Virus record (IMG/VR): IMGVR_UViG_3300041409_000599
Span: 1-64,000 of that record
Length of the DNA: 64,000 bases
From: a virus
Strand: one strand, 5' to 3'
Within the stretch, counting starts at the first letter, position 1; each line of letters begins with the position of its first letter. Positions 20,239 to 50,694 of this stretch are shown here, piece by piece. The notes beneath the pieces were generated by a model. The model ran no database searches. It was not told the DNA's origin and saw nothing but the letters and a program-made list of their open reading frames with translations. A program made the translations under genes and the position numbers.

Positions 20239-20241
20239 ACC

Positions 20242-20661: not shown

Positions 20662-20671
20662 GAGTGAGCGC

Positions 20672-21841: not shown

Positions 21842-21852
21842 AAGGAGAAACA

Positions 21853-22981: not shown

Positions 22982-23112
22982 AACCGAAAAGGGCTCGGCA
23001 GGGAGCCCTGTACGGGAATGAGCGCGACACGGCGGAGAGAGTGGAGGATGCAATGAACAACGATTGGAACGCAGGAGAATCACTCAAAATTCACGATAAA
23101 CGCGGAGGGAAT

Positions 23113-23373: not shown

Positions 23374-23387
23374 GAAAGCGTGAGCCC

Positions 23388-27021: not shown

Positions 27022-27041
27022 ACAAATCGCTCAGAATTTGT
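27022..27041 (-). promoter_or_regulatory. CUGAGC-loop hairpin 3 nt before the TerL-ATPase start
   Basis: ACAAATT-CTGAGC-GATTTGT on the - strand. Confidence 0.6.
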
Positions 27042-27070
27042 AACGAACGAATCTGCTTTTAGGGGATACG

Positions 27071-27553
27071 TTAGTTGACGCTGCCCTGGCCGCCGCTCTC
27101 AGACTTTGGCCAGTATCCGTGCTCTACAAAGAATTCCTTTTCCGCTTCGCTCTTGCCTTCCAGTTGTTTCCTGAACTGATCGTGCTCCTGGCCTTTCACC
27201 ATGAAGCCCTGCATCTCAGCCACTAGGCGCAACGCCGCCACCTGGCCTGTGATATTGCTGTTCGTTTCTTTGGGCAGCATGTCGGCCAGCTTCAGCGCTC
27301 GTTCCGTCACGTCGATCTTGCTGGCCTTGGTGGCAATCTTCCGGGCTGATACCTCAACCATCTGCTTCCGCTTTTCCTCGATCGCCTTGGCAATCTCTGG
27401 TATCTGCATCAGACGAAACGAGTCGCGTGCCGGATCGGAGAACCCAGCATCGCGCGCCGCCTGTACGTCATCACCCTTCCACGCCAGCACGTAGGCCATG
27501 CGCATTTCCGTCCACTTGAATTTGTTCTTGCCGGTTCTCTTGTGTGACGCCAT
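27071..27553 (-). CDS. Terminase small subunit
   Basis: QAARDAGFS....SFRLMQIPEIAKAI HTH pattern; directly upstream of TerL. Confidence 0.78.
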   Translation of the reverse strand: MASHKRTGKNKFKWTEMRMAYVLAWKGDDVQAARDAGFSDPARDSFRLMQIPEIAKAIEEKRKQMVEVSARKIATKASKIDVTERALKLADMLPKETNSNITGQVAALRLVAEMQGFMVKGQEHDQFRKQLEGKSEAEKEFFVEHGYWPKSESGGQGSVN

Positions 27554-30500
27554 TACCGCTCCTCAAAGGCATGCAGTGCACCTTCGCGTTCGCCTTCAAT
27601 GGGATTGCCCCGCATGGTGCTGACGGCCTTCTTCAGCATGATTGGCCGGATAATCGCTTTCTCTTCCGGCGTGGCCGCGTTGAATACCTTCTTTACGTCT
27701 GAGTAGCGATCGAGGCGCGGCAGGTAGAAGCTCAACTCGTCCAGCGCCTGCTTCTTCAGTTGGGCTTTGCGCTCCTTCTGGCTCAAGTCGCCGGACTCGA
27801 TGCGCGCGCGCTTGTCGTCCAATTGCTTCTGCAGGTCCGGAGTCAGCGCCATGTTCTCGCGCAGGAGTTCGTGCATCAGCCGCACCGCGGTCGATTGCGT
27901 TTCGGAATTGGGGAAGGTAACGCCAGCCTGGTAGGCCAGCAGGTCGCGGGTCGGAGTCTCTGACCGTTCTGCCTTTTCTACCTGCTGCGTCGGGCCCAGG
28001 GCGCCAGTAATCTTTTTGCCCACATCATGCGCGATCGTTGCCGCCGGCGCATGCCGATCGTAGATCCTGCTGCCGCTGTAGAAGTCACGATTGAACGCCA
28101 ACTCCGCCGCTGTCTTCGGCAGGACCGCCGGCGTGAATGTTCCCTGAATCAATTCCTCTGGCGGCTTGTTGCCTTTTACAATCTCATTCACCAGATACGG
28201 CACCGCCGAAGCGCCAGAGCGTACCATGCGCGCCTTGGGGTCGCCCGTAATCTTCTTCAGCAGTTTGTCCCACATCTCATAGGCCACAAACGTCAGCAGC
28301 CCCAGCATGAACAGGTGATCAAACCCGCGCGCCCGGTCCTTCCATGTGCTGTCCGGGCTAGCCGCTTCCTTCAACATCTGCCCGTAGGATTTCCACACGC
28401 CATAGTGGTACCGGCTGAATACCGTCAGCATGTGGCTGTTCATGAATTTCGAAAGACCATGCGAGTTGAGCACCCGTGAAGGGATCCGGTAATCAGGGAT
28501 GTGCTTCGCCGTCTCCGCAGCAGCCTCTTCAAAGGGCATGCCGCCCAGGGCTTTCTCATAGGTCGCCTGCAGAAAAAAGATATCGTTCGACATCCACGTC
28601 ATCTTCTGCCCCAGCTTGTACAGCCCTTTCATCATGTCCAGATGGTTGGCGTAGCCGGCCGCTTTCGCCAGCATGCTCGCCACGTCGGTGTGATGGTCAA
28701 GGTAGCCGAGGATTGAATCCACCAGGTGCTTATGCAGTTCGCGCAGGTCCTGGCGATGGCTCATCATCGGCGCGCCGTGGTCCAGCGCCTGCACAAAGTC
28801 GTCGTTCTGCGTTACCACGGCTTTGATTGCCCGAATGCCGGCTTTGAACGAACGCGGATACCTGAACACGTTGAAATTGCCGGTGACGCCTCGTTCCACC
28901 AGCCAGTGATTGCCGATGTTATAGACGTGCCGCGCGGGATTGAGCACCAGGGACGCTGTCATCAGGTTGCCGATCTTTTCCATGGCGCCGGCAGGGTCGG
29001 CATGCAGTTCGTCGGCAAAGCGGTCCAGCGTTTCCGCCAGATGCTTTTCAAAATAGTAGCCATTGAATTGCGGCAGGTTCACCGTGCGCCAGCCGTCCGG
29101 AGGCATCTCGCCATGCTCCGGCTTGAAACTCAGGCTCTTGAACTCAGGGTCTTCCTTCATCGCATCGAGCGCGTCATTGGCTCGTTCCGCGCGCCGAAGT
29201 TGCAGATAGTCCACCACGGTGTTGGCCAGCGCGTTCTTGTAGTAGCGAACGCCGGTGTGCTCCTCAATCTCTTTAGTTGTGGCCTGCTTCAACGTCCAGC
29301 GCTGGCCGTCTTTATCGTTGAACTCATCTCCCACCTGCAAGCCGGGCTTGTCTTTGGCGAACTCTGAAGCGCTGCCGTTATCGAACGCCGTCATGGTGTC
29401 GCCATTGCGATGGACCACCACGCGCTGGCCGTCTTCGTCTTCCGCGGCAAACATCCGGCGCCCTTTGAGAGAACTGGCCGCTTTCGATAGCACGTTGCCT
29501 TTGCCGGTGCCGCCTTTGCCGCGCATGGCGCGTTCCATCTGGTTGTTCTTGCCCTGGACCTCGCGATGGATATAACCGTCGTCCTCGCCCATGGGAACGC
29601 CGGCCTTGTTCAGCTTGGCGCGCATTTCGGAATTGGCGTCCATCAGCGGCTGTACTACGCCCTCAAGGTTGGCCTGCTGCCGGGCCGTCAGCGCTTCGCC
29701 GCTATCTTCTTTATGGTGGTAGATGGCGGCCTGGTCTTCGGGCGAGGTTGTCGGGCCCACGGCCTTCAGCAGCTTGATCACGCGCAGCACGTCGGCATCT
29801 GACTGCTTGCCCAGCTGGTAGAGCGTGTCGTCAATATTCTTGGCCGCTTTGTTTAATCCCGGTTCCAGTACTCGGTCCCAGGTCTTTTCTTTCGCGGCCT
29901 TCACCAGATCGGCTACGGCCGATGGAACGTTGAGACGGGCAAAGCCGGATTCACCGCTCTTGTCCTTGAGCGTCTTCAGTCCGACGGTTACAGTCTTGCC
30001 GTCGTCGGTCTTGACCCGGGCAATATTCATTTCCGGGTGGACGTACTGCACTTGACCGCTGCGGCCATCGGCCAGGGTTACGGTTTCGCCTTTGGCTGGT
30101 GCGCCCGGCTGATTGAATAACCCGCTCTGCCCGCTCGCTTCCGAATCGCGAAACAGCGGCGAGTTGCGTTCCATTTCGCCGGTCTTGGTGCTTATCGATT
30201 CTTTTGGCGCGGTAATCTCGCGCGAGAGGTCTTCGCCGTGCTTTTCAGCAACGGCTTCCTTTTCTGCCGCAACATGAGGTTCCATGCCGGGCAGTGTTGG
30301 CTCTTCAGATTTGTTTTTTGGTCTGCGTAGCTCTTCCAGGTCGGAAGGTTTTACTGAGGCTTGCCGGTCGGCGTTTCCTGCATCTTCTTCTGCATGTCCT
30401 GGATGCTCTTGAACTCGTTCAGCACCCTGCCCTTCGCTCCCGGTGACAGCTTTTCGTAGCTCGGCTCTGACGGCTTGGTAGGCTCTGCTCTTAACGTCTT

Positions 30501-33500
30501 CCGGTTTGTGGTATCCACTGGCTAACTCCTTGGCGGACTTTTCCAGAATGTCATTGACCGGGCCGGTGTGCGAACTCAGTTTATTGTACGCCTCCTCGGC
30601 CTGCCCGGCGGCATCGGCAATCTTTCTGTTCTGCTCGGCCTTCAGCTTCTGGCCCTTCACCTGGCCCAGCGCGGACGCTTTGTCCTCGGTCGCCACTGAT
30701 CCAAACACCCTGCGCTCTTTTGCTATCTGCGCTTTGATGTGCGCCGATATCTCCGCTTTCTCCAGAGCCAGAGAATGGATCTGCTGATTGGCGCCGAACA
30801 ATCCCCCTTGCTCAATGGTCTTGTTGCCGGAGTTGCCCACGAACCGCGCCAGCTCCGCGACCGTCGCATCAGTAACGCTCTTGCCTTGCTTCTCGCGCTT
30901 GTCGAGCAGTTTTAGAATCGCTTCCTGCTGCGCCGGATCACTCGTCGCCTGTCCGATGGCCACGCCGCGGCCTTCGCTCATCTTGCCCGTGGCCACACGC
31001 TCAAAGATCGATTGATCGAGTTTAGATAGCGCCAGGCCGTCCGCGGCTTTGGACTCGCCCAGGGAGATGCCGTGCTTGCTCAGGTCGGCGGGTGAGATGC
31101 CGCTCTCGCGGAAGAATTTTGCCGCGTCGACGGCTGTCCCTCTGCCTTCAGCAATGTTCTGCAGGGCGCCCGTTGCGCGCGCTTCGCCTGCGGTGTCAAC
31201 ATTCAAATGGCGCGCAAGAAGATCATGTGCGCCGTTTTCTTTTGCCAGTTGAACGCGATGGTGTCCATTGACCACGTAAGTCTTGCCATCGGCGGGATTG
31301 TGCCAGATGGAGACCACGCCAGCCAGATCGTCATTCCATTTCTGCCCGGAAAGAAGGTTGGTTACGCCGTGTTCGTTGGTGTTGAGTTTGTACTGAAATT
31401 CTTTTGGCGCGATCGTGAGGTCATCCACGCGGACGCGGCCAGCCTGCCCTTTGGCCGGGATGCCTTCAGGCAGTTGATGCTCAATCTCTGATTCGTGGAA
31501 GGTCTGGGGAGCTACTTCTTCGGTTCCACCTTGAGTGGCGGCTTCATGTCCGACTTCAGTAATTCCTCTAAGCTCACCACGGGCACGCTCTCCGGCTGCT
31601 TCTCTGGCGGTCTTGTGTTTGTGGAGTTCGGCTTCTGCGGATTTGAGGTCGGTTCCTGTGCCATAGCTAAAGTCTACTCCTTGGAGCGTGACGGTATTTC
31701 CATCTGCATCGGTGACGGTAAACTCGCGGTTCCTGAGGATCGCGCGCGCCTTTTCCAGCCCGGCTTTCAATTGCTCCGGCGATTCACCGCGATAGAGAAA
31801 TTCATCACCCTTCTGATGGTAAGCGTCCAGTCCGGCTTCTTTCGCCGCTTCGGCTTTGGCCACCAGAATAGTGTTGCCTGCCTTGTATCCAAACTTGTCA
31901 TTGAAGGCTTTCAGCGCGTCGGCGTCCGACATGGCCACCGCCGGCGACGAGGGCGCATCGTGGAAGGCGCGGCCATTCGGAATTGGCATCTCTGTGTGTG
32001 TGCCGTCGCCATTGTCCAGCCGCGACGTGTGCAGTTCCCGCGCCATCTCATGCGGCTTCATATCCGCCACGCGCTTGCGCTCGGCCACGTTGGTGCGGCG
32101 GTCCGGCTTGTTGCCGTATACCGTACCTTTGCCAGAATCGTAATCGGGAAAGAGCACGACTACATTGTGTGGGCCGTACTTTTTCCCTGCGGATCGGCCA
32201 CCTTCGTGGCGCAACCCGTGATATCCCATCTCCACCAGATTCTGGGAGATGTCGCCGAGCAGGTCCTGAATTTCGTAAGCCGGGATGCGCTGCGCCGCCG
32301 ATTCATCCCGTAATTCTGAATAGATGTGCGTGCCCTTGGTGCCTTCAGGAAAGGCAGACATGCCCAAGGGGGTGTACTGTTCAATTCGTTTATTGAAGAG
32401 CTGGAGAACTTTGTCCGGCAGAGGCTTTTCCAGATCCAGAACTTTTGCGCCTGGTAACTCGGCTGAGAGCACGTGACGCTGTTCTGTCCTACCCTCGTCA
32501 GGTTTTCTGGTTCGCTTGTAACCTTCTGCCACTTTCGGATTATCGGTAAGGTAAAGCCCTGGACCGTAAATGTTCAATTCACCGGAGAACCCTACCGGAT
32601 CAGCCTCTTTCAGTTCCGTCAAACCATGGGGCGTGCCGTGATAAAACGTCTTGCCGCCGGGCAATTCCTCGTGTGTCAATGGTTCATATTTGTAGCCGCC
32701 TTCAAGGGGTATGCGTTCTTCTGTCCCATCTCTCTTGCTGACGACAACATGGTCCACAGGGATCTTGCCGCCCTCCAGATGGCTGCCGCCTTCATATTTG
32801 GCAACATGTTCCGGCTTCACGTAGCCCAGAGTGACGTGCGGCTTATACTCGCCGTGGTCGTCCGGCTTAAACTCGCCGGCGCCCTCAACCGCTGAACGCA
32901 AGGCGTTAAGTTCGGGAGATTTCTCCACGTGCACAATGACTGGATGGGCACCTTCCTTGGTGGCCGGGAATGATCCAGTCTTGCCGACCGTGGCCTCAAA
33001 CGGCGCTATCTTGGCCGCCGCATCCTTTATATGGGCGATGGCTTCAGGGCTGTCGTCTTTCAGGCCATAACGCACCGTAACGTGCGGAGTCTTTTCCTTG
33101 CCGTTCGGCCCCAGATGCTCTTCCGGGATGGCCGCAACCGCTTCGGTATGCCGCTGGCCCAGCTCGCTCTTGGGCTCGATATTGACTTGCGTGGACGCAT
33201 ATTCATGCGCTGGCTGGATGTCATTCTCGGTGAATACTTTAGGAGCAGCTACTTCCTGTTTTGCTCCCTCATTTCCGGTCAGATTTTGGGTAGATTGAGA
33301 CTCCTGGGGCACACCAGGAGCCTGTGTTTCGCCCAAGTCAGTCTGAACCGGCTGCGGAGTGGGTGCCTGTGGCTCTTGAGCCGGTGTTGCCTTCGGTGGA
33401 CGCGAACTGGCTAGGAACTGTCTGACCGGTGCTGCCGGCGTACTTGTGGCTTCAGGTGTCCTATTGGCAGCTTCCGGTGAGCTTTTGGCCGGTTGCTGTG

Positions 33501-35010: not shown

Positions 35011-35029
35011 TTGGATTTATGATTGGGGC

Positions 35030-35230
35030 ATGAGAGGACGCGATAATTCAAAAGAGCGCTATTGGCAAGCGTCGGTAATGTGTGCGTTGGGATCGCTAGT
35101 CTACGCTGTGTTTTTTGGAATCGCGATTGCTAAGCAATTCCCTACTGCCGTGCCAATAATTTACGCTCTGATATGTGCATGGTTTCTGTGGCACGCCAAA
35201 CGTCTATGGGATGGCGATGTAGCTCAATGA
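35030..35230 (+). CDS. Small 2-TM protein (antisense moron)
   Basis: Two hydrophobic segments; fills the gap between late genes on the opposite strand. Confidence 0.55.
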   Translation: MRGRDNSKERYWQASVMCALGSLVYAVFFGIAIAKQFPTAVPIIYALICAWFLWHAKRLWDGDVAQ

Positions 35231-35562
35231 ACCGCCGCAACTTTCTTCAACTCGCCGCTCTCGCCGTCGCCGGACAAGCCGCAGAGCGTGTCTTTCCCTT
35301 CAGGGTATACAGCATCCCGAAAAATATTGTGGTGGCATCCAACTGGGATCAATTGATCATGCCGCCGTCCTCTCTCTACGGCATGCCTTACTATTTCCCG
35401 CCCGGCTGCCTTGGTAGTGTCGGCCCGTGGATGGGAATCAGCCGTGCCGAGTTCATCCCCTTCACAACATTAAAAAAGGACAGCGAAACCGCTGAAGCCG
35501 CCAGGACGCTGGCTAAGGCGCTGGACTGCCCTCATACTTACCGCCGGGCAGAATCTTTGTGA
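35227..35562 (+). CDS. Twin-arginine signal protein
   Basis: MNRRNFLQLAALAVAG; ATGA coupling. Confidence 0.6.
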   Translation: MNRRNFLQLAALAVAGQAAERVFPFRVYSIPKNIVVASNWDQLIMPPSSLYGMPYYFPPGCLGSVGPWMGISRAEFIPFTTLKKDSETAEAARTLAKALDCPHTYRRAESL

Positions 35563-36871: not shown

Positions 36872-36881
36872 AGTTGATCTC

Positions 36882-37835: not shown

Positions 37836-38306
37836 CTAGTCCCCCAACTCGCTGAAATCAATTCCCACCGGCGTCAGGCTCTTCCATACCCTGATATGCG
37901 GATATCGCTTCAGGAACCGCGTCATGGCCACGGCAAACCGCTGTGGCACCAGTCCCCAGCCGCTGCGAAATCCGCGCGACTTTGCCCATTGCGCTTCGTG
38001 CGTCAACTCCGTGCCCAGCGATTCCATCACCGCTTTCGATCCGGTAATGATCGCCACTTCGGCCACCACTTCGGTGTACCTGAAGCCGCTGATCACTCCG
38101 TCCTCTTCCGCCACGGCCACGCGAATCACCGGCGGACAGTACGGCGCGAACGCCTGGCTGTCTTCCTCTTCACAGAACAGTTTTGGCCGGTCAACCTTTA
38201 CGTCAGTGCCAGCAAAGCGCTTTTCCTGCTCATCCCACAATTCCATGATGCGCGGCAAATCTTCCGCCACCGCCGGACGCCAGACTATTTCGGTCCGCAT
38301 CCGCAA
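37836..38306 (-). CDS. GNAT-fold-like virion assembly protein (T7 gp13-like position)
   Basis: WRPAVAEDLPRIMELW GNAT-type start; synteny. Confidence 0.5.
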   Translation of the reverse strand: MRMRTEIVWRPAVAEDLPRIMELWDEQEKRFAGTDVKVDRPKLFCEEEDSQAFAPYCPPVIRVAVAEEDGVISGFRYTEVVAEVAIITGSKAVMESLGTELTHEAQWAKSRGFRSGWGLVPQRFAVAMTRFLKRYPHIRVWKSLTPVGIDFSELGD

Positions 38307-42233: not shown

Positions 42234-42241
42234 CGACTGGG

Positions 42242-42622
42242 TTAGTCTTCTACCCGGCCAATAGCCTCAACGTAGGTGTCAATATCGGCGGTAACGCCGC
42301 CAGCGTACGCGCCCGCGGCCAACTCGGTGCCGGGTGTCGTGCCGAAGAATTTCAATATCGGATGCAGGTTGTCGGCGCCCTGGATGATCTCCACGCCGAA
42401 ACCACCGAAGCCATTGAGCGGATAGACGCGGGTCGGCCCGTCCTTTCCCCACAGCGCCTGCGCCACGTTCTTGGGGTTGGTGGCGCCATTCAGGTTGAGA
42501 ACCTCGCCGGTAGCAGAGAGACGCACGGCCTGAACGTAGGCGCCGGAGAGGGTGACCTTGTAGCGGATAAGCCTCACCCGCCCATCTGTGTAGGAATCAT
42601 CAATTTGCAATGTATTTGGCAT
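42242..42622 (-). CDS. Putative structural protein
   Basis: Strong SD AAGGAG; beta-rich 126 aa. Confidence 0.55.
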   Translation of the reverse strand: MPNTLQIDDSYTDGRVRLIRYKVTLSGAYVQAVRLSATGEVLNLNGATNPKNVAQALWGKDGPTRVYPLNGFGGFGVEIIQGADNLHPILKFFGTTPGTELAAGAYAGGVTADIDTYVEAIGRVED

Positions 42623-42669
42623 CTGCTGTGCTCCTTGAAGGATTTTGAAATTGGTTTTAAGGACTGGTC

Positions 42670-43368
42670 TTACGGACGAGGTAGAGTGAAGCCGCTTCCG
42701 GTCTCTCTGCGTGACATTCTGCCCACGCGCCTGTTCTTCGAAAGATTCGCCTTGGTCAGCGCGATGTTGAGGTCATCGAATGTTTCCTTCTCTTCCTCCT
42801 CGTAATCGACGACAAGCTGTCTGCGTCCGCGCGCCTTGGCCACCGCTCGAACCATCAAATATGAGAGAACTGGGTTAGCGGTAATCTCAATCTCGATCGG
42901 TGAATTGCCGTCGGTCAGCGGGTCAAAGAGGAAGTCCCCGGTGACTCGCAGATCAAGCGCGGTCGAAAACCTGCTCACCTGCAGCTTGCGCCGGATCCAC
43001 GCCCATGCGCTGAGTTGCGGAATTCCGGCAACAATATCCGGCAGCTTGTCCAGCGGCCCGGAGGCTTCAAGATAATTCGAAGCATCCTGTCCCGGCAGCT
43101 TCCACTCCACCATGCGCGGCTGCACCATCAGGGCCAGCACTGCGCCAGGAGCCTGATACACGCCAAGATCAGGTATGCCGGCCGCCACCGCAGGCAGCTC
43201 AATCGTGACTTGGTCAAAGTTGTGGCCGTTGGCGCGCAGCTTGTTGTAGAGCCGGTCATACTGGTTTTGCGCGAAGCCGGTAATGTAGTCCGGATCGCCG
43301 TCGCCCGTACCTTCCGGGTCATCCAGCATGAACTGCACGCGGCTGATGATGTCGCTAAGAAGTGCCAT
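42670..43368 (-). CDS. Head-tail adaptor-like protein
   Basis: LSDIISRVQFMLDD N-terminal helix; size and synteny. Confidence 0.6.
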   Translation of the reverse strand: MALLSDIISRVQFMLDDPEGTGDGDPDYITGFAQNQYDRLYNKLRANGHNFDQVTIELPAVAAGIPDLGVYQAPGAVLALMVQPRMVEWKLPGQDASNYLEASGPLDKLPDIVAGIPQLSAWAWIRRKLQVSRFSTALDLRVTGDFLFDPLTDGNSPIEIEITANPVLSYLMVRAVAKARGRRQLVVDYEEEEKETFDDLNIALTKANLSKNRRVGRMSRRETGSGFTLPRP

Positions 43369-43768
43369 TGGCGGTAGCTTCAATTCTCTCGAATCGCGAA
43401 TATCCTTCGATGGTGTGCTTGCGTTGCTCTGTGGGCGGCAGCTTTAAGAATGGAGAGCCGGGCAGAGGATCATGAATTGGCACTCCGTCGTGCATCACGA
43501 GTGCGTGAAGGATGCCCGGGGCAAGTAAAACGTGAGCCACCGAATAGCCCTTTGGCCACGGCCCCCAGTTTTGCTCATCGTAGGTCGTACATGTCCACTC
43601 ATATCCAATCGAAGCAAAGAATTTATGCCAGCGTTGCCGCCACTCTTCCTCGTCTGGAATAGCTGGGTCAATGTCAGGTATTTCTTCCAGTTCCAGCACG
43701 GACGCAACGCAAGCGCCGAAGCAGTTCCCAGTGGGTACACCGAACGTTGTCTGAAATACGTTTTTCAT
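43355..43768 (-). CDS. Phage protein with papain/C39-like C...H...D pattern
   Basis: GNCFGACVASVL...HALV...IHDP. Confidence 0.55.
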   Translation of the reverse strand: MKNVFQTTFGVPTGNCFGACVASVLELEEIPDIDPAIPDEEEWRQRWHKFFASIGYEWTCTTYDEQNWGPWPKGYSVAHVLLAPGILHALVMHDGVPIHDPLPGSPFLKLPPTEQRKHTIEGYSRFERIEATANGTS

Positions 43769-43770
43769 AA

Positions 43771-43807
43771 GAAAATTAAAAGAGGCGCGGTTTCCGGCCG
43801 CGCCTCT
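43771..43807 (-). terminator. Rho-independent terminator
   Basis: AGAGGCGCGG/CCGCGCCTCT 10-bp stem followed by TTTAATTTTC on the - strand. Confidence 0.75.
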
Positions 43808-43831
43808 CTGTCGTTCACCTGCGAAACGAAG

Positions 43832-44974
43832 TTATTTCTTCGTCTCAGTCTTTCCACCAGCAGGTTTCTTGGCTTTGCCGCGTTCGGCTTTCTGCTTCTC
43901 GCGCTCTTCATAAATTGCTTCGGCTTCGGCGTACTCATCTGAAGTCAGCGCGTCGAACTTGGCATGTCCCCACTCGATCGCGTAATCCTTAAACGCTTCC
44001 AGGGCATTCAGGATGCTGTTGCAGCTCAGGCACTTGTATGCGCCCTTGCGCCGCGGCGTTCCGCAGGCCTTGCAGTTGTCCTGTTCCAGCCCTTCGTCCG
44101 AGCGGTCGCCCGGGTTCCAATCCGGAAGCTTTGCAATCAGCCCTTCGGACAGCAGCACTTCTGAGATCAGCATGTGCTTGGGCGTGACCAGAAACTTTCC
44201 TTTGCCGCCGGGCAGGTTGTAATCCCGGTAAGCCCGCCGATACTTGTCCAGATAAATGCGGTTGCGCACCTGCCGCGCTTCCTCAATCAACTCGGACAGC
44301 TTGCGTTTGATCGGCACGGCAATCATCGCCGCTTCTTCCTGGTCTTCCGCGTTAAAGACCACGCCCGGAACTTCGCGTGTCTGCACGCGGCCAATCGGAT
44401 CGTAGACCTCAACTTCGCCCATCTTGTCAGGATGGCCATCCCCTTCGTAGACAATCACGCCGCCGCCATCGTTGTGCTGATCGGAAAACTCGCGCACAAA
44501 CTGCGCCGCCAGGGTGATTGGCAGAATCTCCATAAACTTCTGCGTTCCGTCCTCGTTGTATTCCCAGTCCATGCGATAGCCACGAATGTGGTGGTACGCG
44601 AAGGGCATTCCGGGATGGCAGGCCGGAATCTGGATGCCGCGCAGCAGCCTGATACCGGAGGGAAACATTAGGTCCCAGGGATGCAGATTGATGACCGTGG
44701 CCGCTTTCGCCGGCGTTGACCGCATGCGCGCGCGCAAATCGTTCAGGCTGTTTTGTGACTTGTCGTCCAGACGGTTGGCGCTCTTGCGCTGCTCGGCTGT
44801 CTTCGCGCTGATCAATGCATCCAGCATCGGATTGGCCTTGGCAAACTCTTCCGCCGCCTTCGATGTCTGCTGCGCCGCGGGTGACAGACGCACCGCGCCA
44901 CCCTGATAGGGAATCACGCGATCGGTGGAGGGCAGTGGACCGCCCGGCATAGGTAATGATGTTTCTTCAGACAT
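43832..44974 (-). CDS. Hypothetical protein with C-terminal zinc ribbon
   Basis: SD AAGGAG; CKAC...CLSC. Confidence 0.7.
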   Translation of the reverse strand: MSEETSLPMPGGPLPSTDRVIPYQGGAVRLSPAAQQTSKAAEEFAKANPMLDALISAKTAEQRKSANRLDDKSQNSLNDLRARMRSTPAKAATVINLHPWDLMFPSGIRLLRGIQIPACHPGMPFAYHHIRGYRMDWEYNEDGTQKFMEILPITLAAQFVREFSDQHNDGGGVIVYEGDGHPDKMGEVEVYDPIGRVQTREVPGVVFNAEDQEEAAMIAVPIKRKLSELIEEARQVRNRIYLDKYRRAYRDYNLPGGKGKFLVTPKHMLISEVLLSEGLIAKLPDWNPGDRSDEGLEQDNCKACGTPRRKGAYKCLSCNSILNALEAFKDYAIEWGHAKFDALTSDEYAEAEAIYEEREKQKAERGKAKKPAGGKTETKK

Positions 44975-44985
44975 AGGTTCTCCTT

Positions 44986-45043
44986 GCCGCGCTCAGGCGG
45001 CGTTCGTGGTTATAGGTTTTCCATTGCCCGGCGCTTAGACCGG
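44986..45043 (-). promoter_or_regulatory. Tandem CUAAGC/CUGAGC-loop hairpins abutting the SD
   Basis: CCGGT-CTAAGC-GCCGG ... GCCGC-CTGAGC-GCGGC-AAGGAG. Confidence 0.65.
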
Positions 45044-45111
45044 ATTGTGGATTTGGGTGCTCGAATTTTTACAGGTGGTTAAAAATTTTACGGGGTGTAA
45101 ATAATTTCGCG

Positions 45112-45885
45112 TCAGTTTCCGTAATTGCCCTTGAGTCCCGCCTGGTCGGCTAATTGCTGCCTGATTCTTCCGGCGCCCAGACTCAACCGATTACGCAGGT
45201 TCCCCAGCGGACCATCCTTCATCAGGTTCTCGATCATGTTCCTGCGATTGGCCTTCTTCTTCTGTAACGCCAGTTCGCGCCGCTGCAACAGCATCAGCAC
45301 ACGTTGCTTTGCGCTGGCCGGCCGCTCGTCGATCTGCTTCATGTCAAAGCGAATCGCTTCAGCAATCTGCGCTTCTGTCAGCATGTAAGGCGTAGGCCCG
45401 GCGCAGTACTCGTAATCGCCGTGCTGTGGATACGGACCCAGAACGCTCTCGCCTTTGAACCTGTAGTTTTCCCATTCGGAAGGTGAGCCATAGGTGTGCG
45501 AAGCTTTCCATTTCTCCAGCACGAAACCCTCGTAGCCGTACACAGGGATTTCCTTCAGACCCAGCGTCACGCTGCGCGGCCTGACCGCAAGGCGCGATTG
45601 CAGGAACTCGGTTATTTCCTCAACGCACTTCTTTTCCTGCACCATCTCGCGCATCTCGCCGATGCCCAGGCCTGAGATGTCATCGAGCGAGGCGTCTTCT
45701 GGCCATTCGTTCCACTCGCCCGACGCGATGGTATAGCGGTCCTGCGCCAGAATCAGCCGGTACAGCGGTTCGCCGTATTGATTGGTCCCACCCACAATCA
45801 GGATCTTCCGCAGCAGCTTGGGCGGGATGGCGATCGAGGGATGCAGGTCGCGGCGTTTCAGCCTGCCGGTCTTCACCTGCTTCAT
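45112..45885 (-). CDS. Conserved-looking phage hypothetical protein
   Basis: GGTNQYGEPLYRLI...VLEKW...LGPYP..GDYE. Confidence 0.7.
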   Translation of the reverse strand: MKQVKTGRLKRRDLHPSIAIPPKLLRKILIVGGTNQYGEPLYRLILAQDRYTIASGEWNEWPEDASLDDISGLGIGEMREMVQEKKCVEEITEFLQSRLAVRPRSVTLGLKEIPVYGYEGFVLEKWKASHTYGSPSEWENYRFKGESVLGPYPQHGDYEYCAGPTPYMLTEAQIAEAIRFDMKQIDERPASAKQRVLMLLQRRELALQKKKANRRNMIENLMKDGPLGNLRNRLSLGAGRIRQQLADQAGLKGNYGN

Positions 45886-46323
45886 TTAGCCGACCACCAC
45901 GCGAATGTCTTCTTCGCGGATTTGCGCCACCTGATGGCCGCCAATCTCGATCTGCATAGCCGAGTACTTGGTATAGACCACGTAGTTTCCGACTTTCACT
46001 TCCAGCGGCACCCGCAGGCCGTTTTCAATGTAGCCGCTGCCAACGGCAATCACGATGCCGCATGTCTGTTCCGCCCGCGCCTCTTCCGGAATGATGATGG
46101 AGGAATAGTGCTCGCTCGGCGGCAATGGCAACACCAGTATCTTGTCGCCCAGGGGACGCGCTTTAATTGCCACCAGGTCGTCAGCGACATTGAGCGCTTC
46201 TGTGACCAGATGCGCGGCCCGGACCATCACGGGAAGGTTGGCGTCGGTGACCTCGTCCTGTTTCCTCGCGCTCAGGCGATTGTCGGTGACTTTCAAAATA
46301 GAATCGGTTTTGGTCATTGACAT
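45886..46323 (-). CDS. groES: GroES/Cpn10 co-chaperonin (start uncertain)
   Basis: RPLGDKILV...IIIP...GIVIAVGSG...PLEVKVG..V.Y.KY...IREEDI. Confidence 0.9.
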   Translation of the reverse strand: MSMTKTDSILKVTDNRLSARKQDEVTDANLPVMVRAAHLVTEALNVADDLVAIKARPLGDKILVLPLPPSEHYSSIIIPEEARAEQTCGIVIAVGSGYIENGLRVPLEVKVGNYVVYTKYSAMQIEIGGHQVAQIREEDIRVVVG

Positions 46324-46712
46324 TACTGCTTCCTTCCTTTCACGTCTTCGGTCATGAGCATGGTTCCCAACATAAATACTGACGCAAAGACCTTGCCGTC
46401 GTATCCCACCAGATTGACCTGGTTGGGCAGCACTTGCAGGTTCTGCATGATTGGCTTTTTGTTGACGGTGATGGTGGGCATATCAGGATCGGGGCTCACC
46501 GGAGTTCCCGGCGCCGCTTCCTCAATCGTGCCCAGTTGTTCATACGCCATGATGGCGATAGGGTGCATCACCAGGCTGGCGCATTTCTCGTTGCTGGCAA
46601 TCCACTTCACCGTATCAACGCGCATAAAGCGCTGCGCCATCGCGAATTGCTTTCTCAGTTCCGCATCGCTTGCGTTCTCAAGGGTAGGGGCATTCTGTTT
46701 GCGGTTCGTCAT
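46323..46712 (-). CDS. Hypothetical protein
   Basis: Coupled ORF. Confidence 0.55.
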   Translation of the reverse strand: MTNRKQNAPTLENASDAELRKQFAMAQRFMRVDTVKWIASNEKCASLVMHPIAIMAYEQLGTIEEAAPGTPVSPDPDMPTITVNKKPIMQNLQVLPNQVNLVGYDGKVFASVFMLGTMLMTEDVKGRKQ

Positions 46713-47176
46713 GCGTTCTGCACCGCCTTCAGGTAATCGCTGATCGTGATTCCAGTGTTGAGAACAACTTGTACGCAGCGATCATCCCAGAGTTCGATCA
46801 TGCCGAAGTCCTTGGTGCAGGTGATATCGAGAACGGCACCAAAATGCTTATCGCACCAGACCTGAATAAAAGACCTGGCGTTCATCGTTTCATTCCAACG
46901 CTTGAGCCATTCCTTGTGTTCGCTCTCAATACGTTCCAGTTCTGCGGGTGCACTAACTGCACCTTCGGCGAGCTTCTTATAGAGCCATGGCTGCGTTGGC
47001 TCCGGAGGGCAATACACTCTTGCCGTGAAAATCTTTACCGTCTTGCCTTCAGCCAGCCATCCCTTCACTCGTTCCACCATCGGCATGATTGGTTCGCCGA
47101 TGTGCTCCGGGCCTTTCCATCCCGCGTAATGCGCCAGCGTGCCGTCTAGGTCTACGCCGATCCAACCGTTGTGCAT
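46709..47176 (-). CDS. HAD-superfamily phosphatase-like protein
   Basis: VDLDGTLA, IFTAR, K, WDDR. Confidence 0.85.
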   Translation of the reverse strand: MHNGWIGVDLDGTLAHYAGWKGPEHIGEPIMPMVERVKGWLAEGKTVKIFTARVYCPPEPTQPWLYKKLAEGAVSAPAELERIESEHKEWLKRWNETMNARSFIQVWCDKHFGAVLDITCTKDFGMIELWDDRCVQVVLNTGITISDYLKAVQNA

Positions 47177-47191
47177 CTTTCCTCCAGAATT

Positions 47192-47220
47192 TCAGGGCCC
47201 ACCAATGCGGCAGACCCTGA
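47192..47220 (-). terminator. 12-bp hairpin after the capsid gene (terminator or mRNA stabiliser)
   Basis: TCAGGGTCTGCC-GCATT-GGTGGGCCCTGA; weak U-tract. Confidence 0.5.
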
Positions 47221-47260
47221 CAGGTTTTAGCTAATTGCTAATTGCTTCCTTGCTAATTGC

Positions 47261-48541
47261 TTAATTGTTCGTCGGTACTTTTCCGCCGGTGATCGCAGCC
47301 TGCGCCATCGGATTGTTCACGTACCACTGCTCGGCGCAGACCCAGTACATGACTTCCTGCACGGTCGGCGTGCCGGTCGTCGGATCCACCAGTTGGAAGA
47401 TCATCTGATTGCCGCGGTTCTTGAACCAGAATTGGCCCTGTCCCCACTTGATGGTGTTCCATGCTTCTTTGAGCAGCAGGTCCCAGCGCGTCTGGTCGGC
47501 GTGCTGGTTGATGTAAATCTTCCTGCCATTCAGGGTGAAGTCGGCAAACAGCGGATCGTACGTGCCCGCCTTTCCGCCATCCAGGGGCACATAGCTGTCA
47601 CCGAAGGCCATCTCTTCCACCGCCTGCAACTGTGACGGATGCGTGTGGTAGAACTGGTTTTTCAGGCCCTTCTTGCCCAGCCGCTGAATGATCTGGTTCT
47701 GCAAGATGCGGAACACAGGCTTGGTCACCTGCGCCGTATTCGACAGATTCAGACCGTTCGCCACCACGTAAGGCAATGCGCGGCTGATGCCGTACAGGTT
47801 GCCCGCCGTCGAGGTGCTGACGAAGACCGGGATGCCGTTCACAAACTGCGGTCCGCCCGGAGTTGCGCCGCCAACGATGATCAAATCGCCGGCCACCGTG
47901 CCCGGAGGAATCGCGTCCACTTGGAACTGCTGTGTGCCGCCCAGCGCCTTGAAGACGTTCTGGATGGTGCAGCTTCCACGCAGCACGTACGCCGGTGACA
48001 TGACCTGAACGGTCTGCTGTTCCTGTCCCAGATGCGCGCCGCGGCCATCGATTGTGCTCGTGGTGGTCGAACGCAGGTTGATGAAGTTCGCGCCGGTGGT
48101 CGAATCCACCGAGCCGATCGAACCGTCACCAGGCGTCTGCAACCAGATATCGCGGCAGCGGATTGCCTCTTCCACGATGTCCGAGATGGTGTCGGTCACC
48201 GCGTTGTCCGTGGCAACGCCATCGCCTTCGCCCACCAGTTGCGCCAGTTGGCTGTACTGGATAGGCAGGGTCCACGCGACGGGAGTGAGCAACATCTGGT
48301 CGTACTTGTTGCCAACGCCGTTAGGCAGCGAGCCCTGGTCAAGGCCGATCTGTTGCGGGTTGGAAGCGATTGCGGTCTTCAGGCGCGCGCGGAACGAGCG
48401 CAGAGACACGCGGGTTGCTTTGCCGGCGCCGTTGCCGAGCAGGCGGGCCAGTTCACCATCGGTATCAACGGTGTTGGCAATGTTGGGGGCAAAGGCTTCC
48501 AGTTGCAACGGGAGAGCCTGTACTGCTGTTAGAGGCGGCAT
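47261..48541 (-). CDS. Major capsid protein
   Basis: 426 aa directly after the scaffold; strong SD; composition and C-terminal NNPMAQAAI motif typical of this capsid type. Confidence 0.8.
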   Translation of the reverse strand: MPPLTAVQALPLQLEAFAPNIANTVDTDGELARLLGNGAGKATRVSLRSFRARLKTAIASNPQQIGLDQGSLPNGVGNKYDQMLLTPVAWTLPIQYSQLAQLVGEGDGVATDNAVTDTISDIVEEAIRCRDIWLQTPGDGSIGSVDSTTGANFINLRSTTTSTIDGRGAHLGQEQQTVQVMSPAYVLRGSCTIQNVFKALGGTQQFQVDAIPPGTVAGDLIIVGGATPGGPQFVNGIPVFVSTSTAGNLYGISRALPYVVANGLNLSNTAQVTKPVFRILQNQIIQRLGKKGLKNQFYHTHPSQLQAVEEMAFGDSYVPLDGGKAGTYDPLFADFTLNGRKIYINQHADQTRWDLLLKEAWNTIKWGQGQFWFKNRGNQMIFQLVDPTTGTPTVQEVMYWVCAEQWYVNNPMAQAAITGGKVPTNN

Positions 48542-48565
48542 GAAACTTGTCTCCTGGGAAAGCGC

Positions 48566-50125
48566 TTACTTCCGTGCCGCGAACGCTCCGCTCCGCTTCA
48601 TCTGCTCTTTGATCAAGTGCTCGCGCGGCATCTCTTCGTTCGGGTGCGCCGCGGCCCATTCGGTGCGTATCTGGGCAATCAGCGCATTCGGATCGGTTAC
48701 AGGTGCCGGTTGTGCGGGTGTCGTAGAGCGAGTCTTCGGGTCGGTGTTCGAGGCGGCGGTTTGTGTGGTGCGCGTTTCCTGCCGGGTTTCCTGACGGGTG
48801 AGCGTGCCGCCCTTGGCTTCGCGGATAACTTGCGCCGCGATCGGGCCAAGGATCTGGTTCGTCCACTTCAGCAGATGCGCGAGATGTTCTTTCTCCCGCG
48901 TCTCGCCTGGTGCACGACTGAGGATCGAATCAAGAGCAGGTTGGTAATAATCCAGCTCTGCCAGCTTCTGATCAACAAGCTGGCCGATTTTCACCATTGC
49001 GGCGTTTTGCTCGAACTCCGTAAGTCCGGCGGTTTTGAATTTGGGTTGCAACTGGGCAACGATGGAGTCTTCAGCTTTCTTCTCCGCGCGCTCAATCGAC
49101 TGCGTATTTACTTCGGTCCTGCGCTTGATGTCGGCCTGCTGGTCGGATTTTTCTTTCTCCGACACGGCTTGCTCGCGCTGCTTGAGTGAATCCGCGAATG
49201 GCTTCAGTTCTTCCGGGACTTCCCCTAACGCCGGGGAGGACGGCGCGTTTACCTCCTCAAGGATGTCCAGGGCGGCTAAGAGCCGTTCGTTCTGGGTTGA
49301 CTCAGCTTTGGCCCTCAGCACAGAGAGCCGGTTATCGAAAATGTGATTGAAGGTGTTCAGTAACGCGGGATGAAACTTGTATTGGCCCTTCTCGTCGAGG
49401 ACCGGCTGGCCCTTGTCGTCGGTGTACATGGCCATCTGCGTCCACTTGTCCAGAAACTTTCCCGCGCCTTCTTTGGTCGTGGCGCCAAGGAACAGGTTGT
49501 CGGTGGACTGCCACGTCGCAGCGCCTTGTGCCATCACCTTCGCGGTTTCAACATCGGGAACAATCTGCCGGATCTCGCGGTTCTCCGCGTCTCTCCGCAG
49601 TGCGCCAAAGACCTGGCCCTTGAGTTCAGGGTTATCGTCAAAGAACTTTTTGGTGGCCGGGTCAGCCTCGATCGCTTTGGCGAATTCCTGCGGTCCCAGA
49701 CTTGTGCCATCGTCCAGTTCAGGGACTTCTGCGGCTGCGGCCGCTGCTGCCTGTTGTTCTTCCGGTGTCGGAGCGTTGGGAGCGGTCGGGTCTTGCTGCT
49801 CTGCCGCGGCGGCTGCTTCGGCAATCTGTTCCGCCGTCTGCGTTGCCGGCACTTCTGCCGGGACCTCAGCAGGCACTTCGGCTGGTGCTGCGCTGCCATT
49901 GCCTTCTTCCAGTGGCACGGAAGCCTTAGCTTCGTCCCATCCCGCGCGTAGCTTGTCCTGGATCGACAGTTCGCCAGAGGGATTACTTGCTGGCGTTGAC
50001 GCTGGTGTAGAAACTGGCGTAGGCGTAGCTGATGGAGTAGGCGCAGAACTCGCTGGCGCTGCCGGTGCGGGAGTGCTCGGAGCTGATGGGGCCGCTGGTG
50101 CGGACGGTGTGATGACTTCAGACAT
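48566..50125 (-). CDS. Scaffolding protein
   Basis: P/A/T-rich acidic N-terminus, coiled coils, basic C-terminus; between portal and capsid. Confidence 0.7.
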   Translation of the reverse strand: MSEVITPSAPAAPSAPSTPAPAAPASSAPTPSATPTPVSTPASTPASNPSGELSIQDKLRAGWDEAKASVPLEEGNGSAAPAEVPAEVPAEVPATQTAEQIAEAAAAAEQQDPTAPNAPTPEEQQAAAAAAAEVPELDDGTSLGPQEFAKAIEADPATKKFFDDNPELKGQVFGALRRDAENREIRQIVPDVETAKVMAQGAATWQSTDNLFLGATTKEGAGKFLDKWTQMAMYTDDKGQPVLDEKGQYKFHPALLNTFNHIFDNRLSVLRAKAESTQNERLLAALDILEEVNAPSSPALGEVPEELKPFADSLKQREQAVSEKEKSDQQADIKRRTEVNTQSIERAEKKAEDSIVAQLQPKFKTAGLTEFEQNAAMVKIGQLVDQKLAELDYYQPALDSILSRAPGETREKEHLAHLLKWTNQILGPIAAQVIREAKGGTLTRQETRQETRTTQTAASNTDPKTRSTTPAQPAPVTDPNALIAQIRTEWAAAHPNEEMPREHLIKEQMKRSGAFAARK

Positions 50126-50143
50126 GACGATTCGTTTCCTTCC

Positions 50144-50198
50144 TCGGCGCTCAGGCCGATTTGGCGGTGAAATAGAAAGGCCCAGCCGCTTAGGGCTG
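50144..50198 (-). promoter_or_regulatory. Tandem CUAAGC/CUGAGC-loop hairpins abutting the scaffold SD
   Basis: CAGCC-CTAAGC-GGCTG ... TCGGC-CTGAGC-GCCGA-GGAAGGA. Confidence 0.65.
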
Positions 50199-50231
50199 AG
50201 CCTCGATTACTGAATTCGGTAATTTGGTAAA

Positions 50232-50684: not shown

Positions 50685-50694
50685 AAATTTCTCC

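What the first reader, a model, noticed from the sequence alone, without database searches (positions are those of the whole stretch)
27022..50198. CU(G/A)AGC-loop hairpins with different stems at late-gene start regions: an unrecognised RNA operator
Seen on the coding (-) strand: scaffold leader CAGCC-CUAAGC-GGCUG (50198-50183) and UCGGC-CUGAGC-GCCGA (50159-50144); leader of the 380-aa zinc-ribbon gene CCGGU-CUAAGC-GCCGG (45043-45028) and GCCGC-CUGAGC-GCGGC (45001-44986); TerL-ATPase leader ACAAAUU-CUGAGC-GAUUUGU (27041-27022); and UCGC-CUGAGC-GCGA (46279-46266) in the 5' part of groES. The loop is conserved while stems differ, G-U pairs work only on this strand, and two leaders share the same order (CUAAGC, ~25 nt, CUGAGC, SD). 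A weaker UAAGC variant precedes the capsid SD (48573-48557). Known: P22 scaffold autoregulates its translation, and Mu Com and lambda N read hairpins. Inference: one protein coordinates head-assembly and packaging stoichiometry. Candidates are the scaffold, the 380-aa zinc-ribbon protein or the zinc-ribbon/CSD protein.
Basis: partly seen in the sequence, partly recalled or inferred. Interest (0 to 1): 0.78.

Follow-up and report, generated by a model that had tools for sequence, protein, structure and literature searches.

The report
Conserved-loop RNA hairpins in prophage late leaders
A small family of RNA hairpins with the same six-base loop (CUNAGC) but different stems sits just ahead of a few late genes of an Acidobacteriaceae prophage and its nearest relatives; it looks like a new cis-regulatory RNA site, but what reads it is unknown.

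Summary
Six CURAGC-loop hairpins lie at the stated coordinates, all on the late-gene coding (-) strand. Five are intergenic: a terminator-like hairpin plus an SD-adjacent hairpin before the scaffold gene, a similar tandem pair before the 380-aa gene, and one 3 nt before the TerL-ATPase start. The sixth (groES-like ORF, 4-bp stem) and the 'UAAGC variant' before the capsid are not supported.

The signal is modest by count but strong by position. Only 3.7% of the late region is non-coding, yet it holds 5 of 12 CURAGC words (P about 4e-5), and all 5 are hairpins. The host MAG shows no such loop in its terminators.

Relatives with 61-67% capsid identity carry CUCAGC, CUAAGC, CUAACC or CUGAGU loops on the coding strand, partly at other sites and on different stems. 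More distant relatives (43-49%) lack them, apart from one isolated hairpin.

Best reading (about 0.4): loop-specific binding sites for an unidentified factor, acting mainly on translation initiation. This resembles tandem-hairpin operators (thrS, ANTAR dual hexaloop, phi21 boxB), but membership in those families is not met.

No Rfam family matches. No RNA data or closer relatives could be obtained.

The parts
50177..50204 (-). Hairpin W1: 11-bp stem (with G-U), loop CUAAGC, tail UUUCUAUUU. It is intrinsic-terminator-like, lies after the 150/190-aa gene, and is the first element of the scaffold leader.
   Evidence: terminator scan; -19.8 kcal/mol, z -4.15
50144..50159 (-). Hairpin W2: UCGGC-CUGAGC-GCCGA. 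It directly abuts the SD GGAAGGAAA and ends 18 nt before the scaffold ATG (50125).
   Evidence: (22.7 bits)
45027..45044 (-). Hairpin W4: (U)CCGGU-CUAAGC-GCCGG(G) with U-G pairs. It is the first element of the leader of the 380-aa gene and has no U tract.
44986..45001 (-). Hairpin W5: GCCGC-CUGAGC-GCGGC. It abuts the SD AAGGAG, 11 nt before the ATG of the 380-aa gene (44974). It is conserved, with loop CUCAGC, in G402 and G403.
27022..27041 (-). Hairpin W6: ACAAAUU-CUGAGC-GAUUUGU, an A/U-rich, weak stem (-2.7 kcal/mol), 3 nt before the ATG of the TerL ATPase half (27018). There is no separate SD.
   Evidence: (TerL PHROG)
46266..46279 (-). Doubtful member: UCGC-CUGAGC-GCGA, a 4-bp stem inside the groES-like ORF (codons about 15-19).
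   Evidence: 15 bits, E 0.2; Cpn10 domain at residues 55-143
48557..48573 (-). Not a member: hairpin GGAAG-UAAGCG-CUUUC before the capsid SD. The scaffold stop codon TAA lies in its loop.
   Evidence: absent from model hits at E <= 10
43832..44974 (-). The 380-aa gene (zinc ribbon CxxC at 301/315, basic tail) downstream of the W4/W5 leader. Its function is unknown.
48566..50125 (-). Scaffold-position gene (519 aa; role assigned by position only, no family match) downstream of the W1/W2 leader, followed by the capsid gene 47261-48541.

Best explanation
The five intergenic hairpins are cis-acting RNA elements on the late transcript of a roughly 70-kb temperate phage integrated in an Acidobacteriaceae genome; its structural genes follow a T7-like order. 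Their hexaloop C-U-N-A-G-C, closed by a C-G or U-G pair, is read sequence-specifically by a trans-acting factor that is not yet identified. That factor is most likely a protein, phage-encoded within the late module or supplied by the host.

Three hairpins end 3-18 nt before a start codon and touch the SD. A bound factor would therefore sit in the 30S binding site and set the translation of the scaffold, the 380-aa protein and the TerL ATPase. In two leaders a second hairpin of the same loop type lies 39-42 nt upstream. This fits a dimeric or cooperative binder, as in the thrS operator or the ANTAR dual hexaloop. At the scaffold leader that upstream hairpin is also a terminator, so the same factor could couple read-through with translation.

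Shown: existence, strand, position, loop conservation with stem turnover, restriction to one phage subclade, and absence from host terminators.
Inferred: RNA-level function, existence of a binder, and the direction of the effect.
For: - Positions and strand.
- Intergenic enrichment: P 4e-5, with all intergenic copies in hairpins.
- Share of late-operon hairpins: of the six G+C-rich perfect intergenic hairpins between 53 and 36 kb, four carry this loop.
- Geometry: hairpins end 18, 11 and 3 nt before the ATG; loop spacing is 39 and 42 nt.
- G-U pairs make the coding-strand fold the better one.
- Host genome: no enrichment. Its terminator-like hairpins favour GCAA/GAAA/UUCG loops, and 0 of 90 six-base loops fit CTNASC.
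- Relatives G402/G404 and G403 (61% capsid identity) have CUCAGC/CUAAGC hairpins only on the coding strand: in the 380-aa gene leader (tandem, the second abutting the SD), after the capsid gene (9-bp stem with two G-U pairs), and a CUAACC loop on the scaffold-leader terminator.
- At the orthologous terminator the stems are unrelated, but the loops are CUAAGC (window), CUGAGU (L029) and CUAACC (G402).
- A model built only from the five window sites gives its eight best hits in 322 kb of relatives all in this subclade and all on the coding strand.
- CTNAGC ranks first or joint first among 1024 loop patterns in three genomes.
Against: - No binder was identified. Pfam and PHROGs name almost nothing in the late module.
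- The count-based signal in this genome alone is only a tie for first place.
- Several stems share a CGGC/GCCG consensus, so some sites may be old duplicates rather than independent.
- The G402/G403 site at +21 of the scaffold ORF encodes a Pro/Ala-rich stretch (inferred from the sequence; not separately tested) and may be incidental.
- L021 (68% capsid identity) keeps the two-hairpin scaffold leader but with other loops, UACG and GCGCUG. The loop is therefore not indispensable for that architecture.
- The TerL site is not conserved.
- Only three or four genomes carry the motif, and they are related.
- There is no expression data.
Confidence: 0.4

Rival explanations
1. These are structure-only elements. 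The hairpins are ordinary terminator, 5'-stabiliser or processing hairpins of a polycistronic late mRNA. The loop is a lineage-specific, well-folding hexaloop: a tetraloop-like U-N-A-G/C core flanked by C and C, or a C1-G5 pseudo-triloop. It would be kept for folding or by descent, with no specific reader.
For: - W1 is terminator-like.
- Orthologous positions in all relatives hold a terminator whatever the loop.
- Related loops are CUAACC and CUCACC (a UMAC-type fold is known for phi21 boxB, PMC12550061), and CUACGC/UACG in L021.
- Hexaloops can form pseudo-triloops (PMC8934654).
- L021 keeps the two-hairpin leader without the loop.
Against: - Host terminators use GNRA/UUCG loops and never this one.
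- The phage's own strongest other hairpins (43809-43779 and 47220-47192) do not use it.
- The loop is kept while stems are replaced at the same site.
- SD-adjacent placement of three sites is not explained by stability alone.
Confidence: 0.27
2. These are boxB-like nut sites. A small N-like protein binds the hexaloop hairpins in the nascent late RNA and makes RNA polymerase read through the terminators that punctuate the late operon (W1 itself, 47220-47192 and 43809-43779).
For: - The loop resembles the CUAACC hexaloop of phi21 boxB (PDB 1NYB; PMC12550061), and G402 has exactly CUAACC.
- Each hairpin pair precedes a gene block that ends in a terminator-like hairpin, with essential genes beyond it.
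- The scaffold and capsid genes lie directly behind a strong terminator with no room for a promoter after it.
Against: - No boxA-like sequence lies near the sites.
- No convincing arginine-rich small protein was found. The one N-terminal R-rich stretch (ORF 53228-53761) lies in a part of the ORF that is probably not translated.
- The sites are in the late operon rather than promoter-proximal early leaders.
- Abutting the SD has no role in this model.
- One hairpin is the terminator itself.
Confidence: 0.15
3. This is chance plus shared descent. A few GC-rich palindromes around a common word, copied between leaders by recombination, with no function tied to the loop.
For: - It is a tie, not a unique outlier, in the loop-pattern count.
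- Leader cassettes are visibly duplicated in G403.
- The stems share a CGGC/GCCG consensus.
- A 22-nt match in the unrelated provirus G401 is a coding-region coincidence.
Against: - Intergenic concentration has P 4e-5.
- All sites are on one strand, with G-U pairs.
- W1, W6, the G402 post-capsid hairpin and the L029 terminator have unrelated stems and flanks.
- The finding replicates in relatives with a model trained only on the window.
Confidence: 0.12
4. This is a DNA-level site. CTNAGC (a CTNAG palindrome core; CCTNAGC is a Bpu10I-type word) would be bound, nicked or methylated as DNA, or would form part of a late promoter.
For: - The core CTNAG is palindromic (direct reading of the sequence).
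- An AT-rich, promoter-like stretch and a shared AATTC-N-AGCAC word lie upstream of the 380-aa gene leader in the window and in G403.
Against: - The flanking inverted repeats vary in sequence while pairing is kept, including G-U pairs that are mismatches in the complementary strand. That is the signature of RNA, not of a duplex DNA site.
- No sigma-70-like promoter is predicted on this strand.
Confidence: 0.06

Closest known systems
Phage phi21 N / boxB (nut site), and lambda and P22 boxB
   Same: A short G+C stem capped by a hexaloop with flanking C and C and a U-N-A-x core. phi21 boxB is CUAACC, read by an arginine-rich peptide (PMC12550061, PDB 1NYB). One relative here has exactly CUAACC. 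Both are phage-specific RNA hairpins near terminators.
   Different: Position 5 is G in nearly all sites here. There is no boxA and no N-like protein. The location is the late operon and next to SDs, and one copy is the terminator itself.
ANTAR dual-hexaloop RNA targets (EutV, AmiR, NasR/NasT; actinobacterial ANTAR RNAs overlapping RBSs)
   Same: Two tandem small hairpins, each with a six-base loop, little stem conservation, loop bases as the determinant, placed at terminators or overlapping ribosome binding sites (PMC8934654, PMC3369931, PMC8164766).
   Different: ANTAR loops have A1 and G4; here they have C1, U2, A4, G5 and C6. The inter-hairpin linker here is 17-32 nt. No ANTAR domain (PF03861) was found in the MAG, including the prophage contig.
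E. coli thrS translational operator (established knowledge, not checked in a paper here)
   Same: The architecture hairpin, single-stranded linker, hairpin, SD, AUG, with two like loops bound by a dimer that competes with the 30S subunit.
   Different: The thrS loops mimic a 7-nt anticodon loop and the binder is a synthetase. Here the loops are 6 nt and the binder is unknown.
Start-associated sequences (SAS/ESAS) of Cluster K mycobacteriophages
   Same: A phage-clade-specific, one-orientation repeat tied to the translation starts of a subset of genes, some with an upstream inverted repeat. Its function is still unknown (PMC3203893).
   Different: SAS is a 13-bp linear word containing the SD, present in 11-19 copies in non-structural genes. 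In ESAS the arms of the inverted repeat are conserved. Here the loop is conserved and the arms vary, with 5 copies in the structural operon.
Phage Mu Com / mom mRNA, MS2 and PP7 coat-protein operators, IRE/IRP pseudo-triloop (established knowledge)
   Same: A single hairpin at or just 5' of the RBS whose loop is read by a protein that switches translation. The IRE loop CAGUGN has a C1-G5 cross-loop pair, as CUNAGC could form.
   Different: There is no sequence relation. None of those proteins has a detectable homologue here.

Membership tests
lambdoid boxB/nut site | Short stem with a GNRA-like penta- or hexaloop read by N | tested here: inconclusive
   The loop form C-U-N-A-G-C resembles phi21 CUAACC. 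An exact CUAACC occurs only in relative G402. The fold was not tested.
lambdoid boxB/nut site | boxA element a few nucleotides 5' of boxB | tested here: not met
   No CGCTCTT(T/A)A on the - strand, and no relaxed GCTCTT near any site. Only the E. coli-type consensus was used.
lambdoid boxB/nut site | Small arginine-rich N protein encoded by the phage | tested here: inconclusive
   An ORF scan for K/R-rich windows found none convincing. The R-rich N-terminus of 53228-53761 overlaps a conserved upstream gene and is unconserved. N proteins cannot be found by homology.
lambdoid boxB/nut site | Promoter-proximal position in early operons, upstream of terminators | tested here: not met
   All sites are in the late structural operon; there are none on the early (+) strand.
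ANTAR dual-hexaloop target | Two tandem hairpins with six-base loops | tested here: met
   W1+W2 and W4+W5; also in G402 and G403.
ANTAR dual-hexaloop target | A at loop position 1 and G at position 4 | tested here: not met
   The loops are C1 U2 N3 A4 G5 C6. Consensus taken from PMC8934654.
ANTAR dual-hexaloop target | ANTAR-domain protein in the genome | tested here: not met
   PF03861 has no match at E <= 0.1 in G000. The MAG is 75.7% complete, so a host copy is not excluded, but the prophage contig is fully covered.
Intrinsic (Rho-independent) terminator | G+C-rich hairpin followed directly by a U tract | tested here: met
   Met for W1 only (11 pairs, tail TCTATTTC). W2, W4, W5 and W6 have no U tract.
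Rfam families (any) | Covariance-model match | tested here: not met
   No match at gathering score over the window, and none at E <= 1 over 43700-51000.
Cluster K SAS/ESAS | 13-bp word GGGATAGGAGCCC at starts, with conserved 17-bp inverted-repeat arms | tested here: not met
   The word is different, and the loop rather than the arms is conserved. This is an analogy only.

The most novel reading that the evidence does not exclude
A subclade of temperate Acidobacteriaceae phages with T7-like structural gene order uses its own post-transcriptional regulon. An unknown RNA-binding factor reads a C-U-N-A-G-C hexaloop on tandem hairpins. Through the same sites it couples read-through of the terminator in front of the scaffold/capsid genes with translational dosing of the scaffold, a 380-aa virion-module protein and the terminase ATPase. 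This would be a hairpin-loop regulon unrelated in sequence to N/boxB or ANTAR.
Probability: 0.3. Interest if true: 0.65.

Novelty: new variant of a known kind. Interest (0 to 1): 0.45.

Why it matters
Late-gene dosing in tailed phages is mostly explained by promoters, terminators and SD strength. Documented RNA operators are few (N/boxB, Com, RegA, coat proteins). A loop-defined hairpin family that turns over between leaders within one phage clade would be a compact, testable case of phage post-transcriptional control in Acidobacteriota, a phylum with almost no phage genetics. The tandem hairpin plus SD module is short enough to test in reporters and pull-downs. If a binder is found, it could serve as an orthogonal RNA-protein pair. 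If the loops prove to be only a folding preference, the finding reduces to an annotation note on terminators and leaders.

Tried and rejected
The DNA of about 40 closer relatives (capsid 65-98% identical) could not be fetched, so no proper covariation test (R-scape type) was possible.
- The IMG/VR, JGI metagenome and GTDB scans gave only relatives at <= 69% capsid identity.
- Public runs: no RNA holder was listed, only two soil DNA runs.
- A pattern scan for the SD-adjacent hairpin found one extra hit, in the unrelated provirus G401. It lies in a coding Rz/Rz1-like region and is judged a coincidence.
- zf-CSD protein as binder: it is absent from the relatives' prophage contigs.
- The 380-aa protein as binder: AF2 model pLDDT 80.8. 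Foldseek gave nothing at E <= 0.001, and VIA-align's best Z was 4.1 on a terminal helix. This gives no evidence either way.
- An ANTAR protein was not found. A boxA was not found.
- Ideas considered and dropped:
  - Pairing of CUGAGC with 16S rRNA nt 22-27 (GCUCAG): that region is buried in helices 2 and 3 (established knowledge).
  - Kissing between CUGAG and CUCAG loops: the two types never occur in the same genome.
  - Anticodon-arm mimicry of tRNA-Leu(NAG), C32-U33-N34-A35-G36: the loop is one base short.
  - REP-like mobile palindromes: the stems are not conserved.
  - N4-type hairpin promoters: wrong location and loop size.
- The pair counts on alignment A2 are circular, because the rows were chosen as hairpins. 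They are not used as evidence.
Full report
**Setting.** Window positions 414-64000 are the first 63,587 bases of a 76,136-base contig (C197) of a 4.25-Mb, 75.7%-complete MAG. Relatives of the capsid come from Acidobacteriaceae MAGs and soil metagenomes.

A 55-bp direct repeat with the 3' half of a tRNA-like sequence lies at window 3964-4018 and again at the contig-equivalent of 73775-73829. An integrase-like ORF lies beside the first copy, so the element is a prophage of about 69.8 kb.

Early genes run on the + strand to about 25.1 kb. The structural and late genes run on the - strand in a T7-like order: portal 50695-53088, a 150/190-aa gene, scaffold-position gene 48566-50125, capsid 47261-48541, several small genes including a Cpn10-domain protein, the 380-aa gene, a putative nozzle-like 889-aa protein, a 2485-aa protein, and a terminase large subunit split into ATPase (26248-27018) and nuclease (25175-26251) halves. 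The capsid has no relative in the INPHARED phage set.

**The observation.** A regex scan of the whole contig (loop CTRAGC, stem of 4 bp or more, G-U allowed) finds exactly these six, all on the - strand and none on the + strand.
- W1 (50204-50177) is longer than reported. It has an 11-bp stem, folds at -19.8 kcal/mol, and is followed by UUUCUAUUU. The terminator scan lists it.
- W2 (50159-50144) abuts the scaffold SD.
- W4 (45044-45027) and W5 (45001-44986) form the same tandem before the 380-aa gene.
- W6 (27041-27022) ends 3 nt before the TerL ATPase ATG.
- Loop-to-loop spacing in the two tandems is 39 and 42 nt.
- Folding the complements of W1, W4 and W6 gives weaker structures, as expected from the U-G pairs.

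**Is it more than chance?** By raw count the case is moderate.
- Shuffles give 1.6 hairpins (both strands, stem of 4 bp or more) against 6 observed, and 0.64 against 5 for stems of 5 bp or more.
- Among all 1024 xxNxxx loop patterns, CTNAGC only ties for first place in this genome. The exact word CTGAGC ties with two others.

Position changes the picture.
- In 25175-53761 only 1,046 of 28,587 bases are non-coding. Yet 5 of the 12 CURAGC words on the coding strand lie there (binomial P 4e-5).
- All five are hairpins with stems of 5-11 bp. The seven coding copies have 0-1 bp of flanking complementarity, apart from the 4-bp groES site.
- Of the six G+C-rich perfect intergenic hairpins between 53 and 36 kb, four carry this loop.
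- A covariance model separates the five intergenic sites (18-22.7 bits) from everything else. The groES site scores 15 bits (E 0.2), the next hit 13.5 bits, and the capsid-leader 'variant' is not listed.

I therefore accept five sites and treat the other two as unsupported.

**Specificity.**
- The rest of the MAG is not enriched: 21 CTNAGC hairpins with stems of 6 bp or more in 4.2 Mb, at about background rate.
- Among 637 terminator-like host hairpins the favoured loops are GCAA, GAAA and UUCG. None of the 90 six-base loops fits CTNASC.
- The prophage's own other strong hairpins (43809-43779, loop CCGGAAA; 47220-47192, loop CAU) do not use it.
- No Rfam family matches, even at E <= 1.

Available were:
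- G402 (the same prophage as in G404) and G403: capsid 61% identical.
- L029: 67%, a decaying prophage with a frameshifted capsid gene.
- L021 and L020: 68-69%, short contigs.
- A 45% clade that includes two complete 69-kb phages.
- G617, G637 and G106: 43-49%.

Gene order is conserved.

G402 and G403 carry CUCAGC or CUAAGC hairpins only on the coding strand.
- The 380-aa gene leader keeps the tandem: CGGC-CUAAGC-GCCG, a 30-32-nt C/A-rich linker, GCCGC-CUCAGC-GCGGC, then the SD.
- A 9-bp hairpin with two G-U pairs and loop CUCAGC follows the capsid gene.
- The scaffold-leader terminator has loop CUAACC.

At that orthologous terminator the stems are unrelated among the window, L029 and G402, but the loops are CUAAGC, CUGAGU and CUAACC.

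A model trained only on the five window sites puts its eight best hits in 322 kb of relatives' DNA in this subclade, all on the coding strand. CTNAGC ranks first or joint first among loop patterns in G402 and G403.

Limits of this evidence:
- The G402/G403 hairpin at +21 of the scaffold ORF encodes a Pro/Ala-rich stretch (inferred from the sequence; not separately tested) and may be incidental.
- L021 keeps the two-hairpin scaffold leader with other loops (UACG, GCGCUG), and has CUACGC after the capsid gene.
- The TerL site is not conserved.
- The 43-49% relatives have none, apart from one hairpin spanning a stop codon in G637.
- The 45% clade instead has a linear word, TTTAGCAGTACC, in exactly the same two leaders. 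This suggests that the scaffold and 380-aa-gene leaders are co-regulated across the wider family by interchangeable signals.

**What it most likely is.**
- The variable stems with kept pairing, the G-U pairs and the single strand argue for RNA rather than duplex DNA.
- Loop conservation over stem replacement, absence from host terminators and restriction to one phage subclade argue for a specific reader rather than a folding preference.
- Placement argues mainly for translation. Three hairpins occupy positions -4 to -34 relative to start codons and touch the SD, where a bound factor would clash with the 30S subunit.
- The tandem arrangement recalls operators bound by dimers. The thrS case is established knowledge; the ANTAR dual hexaloop is documented in PMC8934654.
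- Because W1 is also a terminator directly in front of the most highly needed genes, with no room for a promoter behind it, a transcription-level role (antitermination, boxB-like) remains a serious rival or an additional function.
- The loop resembles the CUAACC hexaloop of phi21 boxB, which folds as a GNRA-like UMAC motif with a flanking C-C pair (PMC12550061). Alternatively C1-G5 could close a pseudo-triloop (PMC8934654).

**Who reads it?** This is unknown.
- Only the late module is shared between the window prophage and the complete G404 prophage, so a conserved phage-encoded reader should lie there. Pfam and PHROGs name almost nothing in it.
- The zinc-ribbon/CSD protein (14517-14930) is missing from the relatives' prophage contigs.
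- The 380-aa protein gives a confident model (pLDDT 80.8) with no known fold. Its first roughly 75 residues align only within the hairpin-bearing subclade, which is a weak hint at best.
- No ANTAR domain, boxA or convincing N-like peptide was found.

**Comparison and novelty.** The motif works most like known hairpin-loop operators and nut/ANTAR sites, but it fails defining features of each (see the membership table). The closest phage analogy in kind is the start-associated sequences of Cluster K mycobacteriophages, whose function is also unknown (PMC3203893). I class it as a new variant of a known kind, namely a candidate cis-regulatory RNA motif. It has moderate interest and rests on three or four related genomes with no expression data.

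**Unpublished genomes.** No main claim rests on them. The side note that capsid relatives occur in 17 of 28 sampled genomes of a sister family includes G420, G422, G424 and G429. G025 appeared in the family search.

Noticed in passing
window 3964-4018 and G000:C197 73362-73416 (window-equivalent 73775-73829; L019 17226-17280): A 55-bp direct repeat containing a tRNA 3'-half-like sequence (variable arm, T arm, CCA). An integrase-like ORF at 4071-5258 (-) lies next to copy 1. These are likely attL/attR of a roughly 69.8-kb prophage. ARAGORN finds no complete tRNA at either copy.
   Followed up: partly
L024 12724, L025 8358 and 14123, L027 8358 and 12322 (all + strand): The 45%-capsid clade (including two complete DTR phages of 69 kb) carries the linear word TTTAGCAGTACC, on the coding strand only, exactly in the scaffold and 380-aa-gene leaders. 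Its terminators share the tail TTTTTATTGCCC. This may be a late promoter or processing signal that replaces the hairpin motif.
   Followed up: partly
window about 47262-47228 (-): Three copies of GCAATTAGC between the capsid stop and a 13-bp hairpin (47220-47192) that precedes the next gene.
   Followed up: no
L023 7185/8310 and 14219/14965: In relative G403, the hairpin-containing leader plus the first codons of the scaffold gene and of the 380-aa gene are each duplicated about 0.75-1.1 kb apart, as if leader cassettes travel with inserted genes.
   Followed up: no
window 14517-14930 (+): A 137-aa protein with an N-terminal CxxC...CxxC zinc ribbon and a cold-shock domain (PF00313, 81 bits) in the early region. 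It is not found in the related prophage contigs.
   Followed up: partly
window 19663-25167 (+) and 56291-56815 (-): Pfam hits: Fis-type HTH (19663-19980), LexA DNA-binding domain (20242-20661), HNH endonuclease (21314-21841), Acb2/Tad1 hairpin domain, a possible anti-CBASS/Thoeris sponge (21853-22083), double zinc ribbon (22044-22382), DUF551 (23833-25167) and a dual-specificity phosphatase (56291-56815).
   Followed up: no
G409-G440 (sister family f2): Capsid relatives at 33-38% identity occur in 17 of 28 sampled genomes of a sister family, an unusually high prevalence for a prophage capsid. The tally includes unpublished genomes G420, G422, G424 and G429.
   Followed up: no
window 48557-48573 (-); L060 6465-6484 (-) = L069 19832-19851 (+): In two hairpins the stop codon TAA of the upstream gene sits in the loop: the scaffold stop in the window, and a CUAAGC hairpin in G637.
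   Followed up: no
window 43832-44974 (-): The 380-aa protein folds confidently (pLDDT 80.8, 26-sequence alignment) but matches no solved structure (Foldseek E > 0.04; best VIA-align Z 4.1). It has about 38 relatives, all unnamed metagenomic proteins.
   Followed up: partly
They presumably come from a neighbouring record.
   Followed up: partly
G405:C3 166657-167923 (L029): The capsid gene of this related prophage is split over two frames (residues 8-295 and 289-426). The prophage is decaying, which may explain its degenerate hairpin loops (CUGAGU, CCCUAGC).
   Followed up: no
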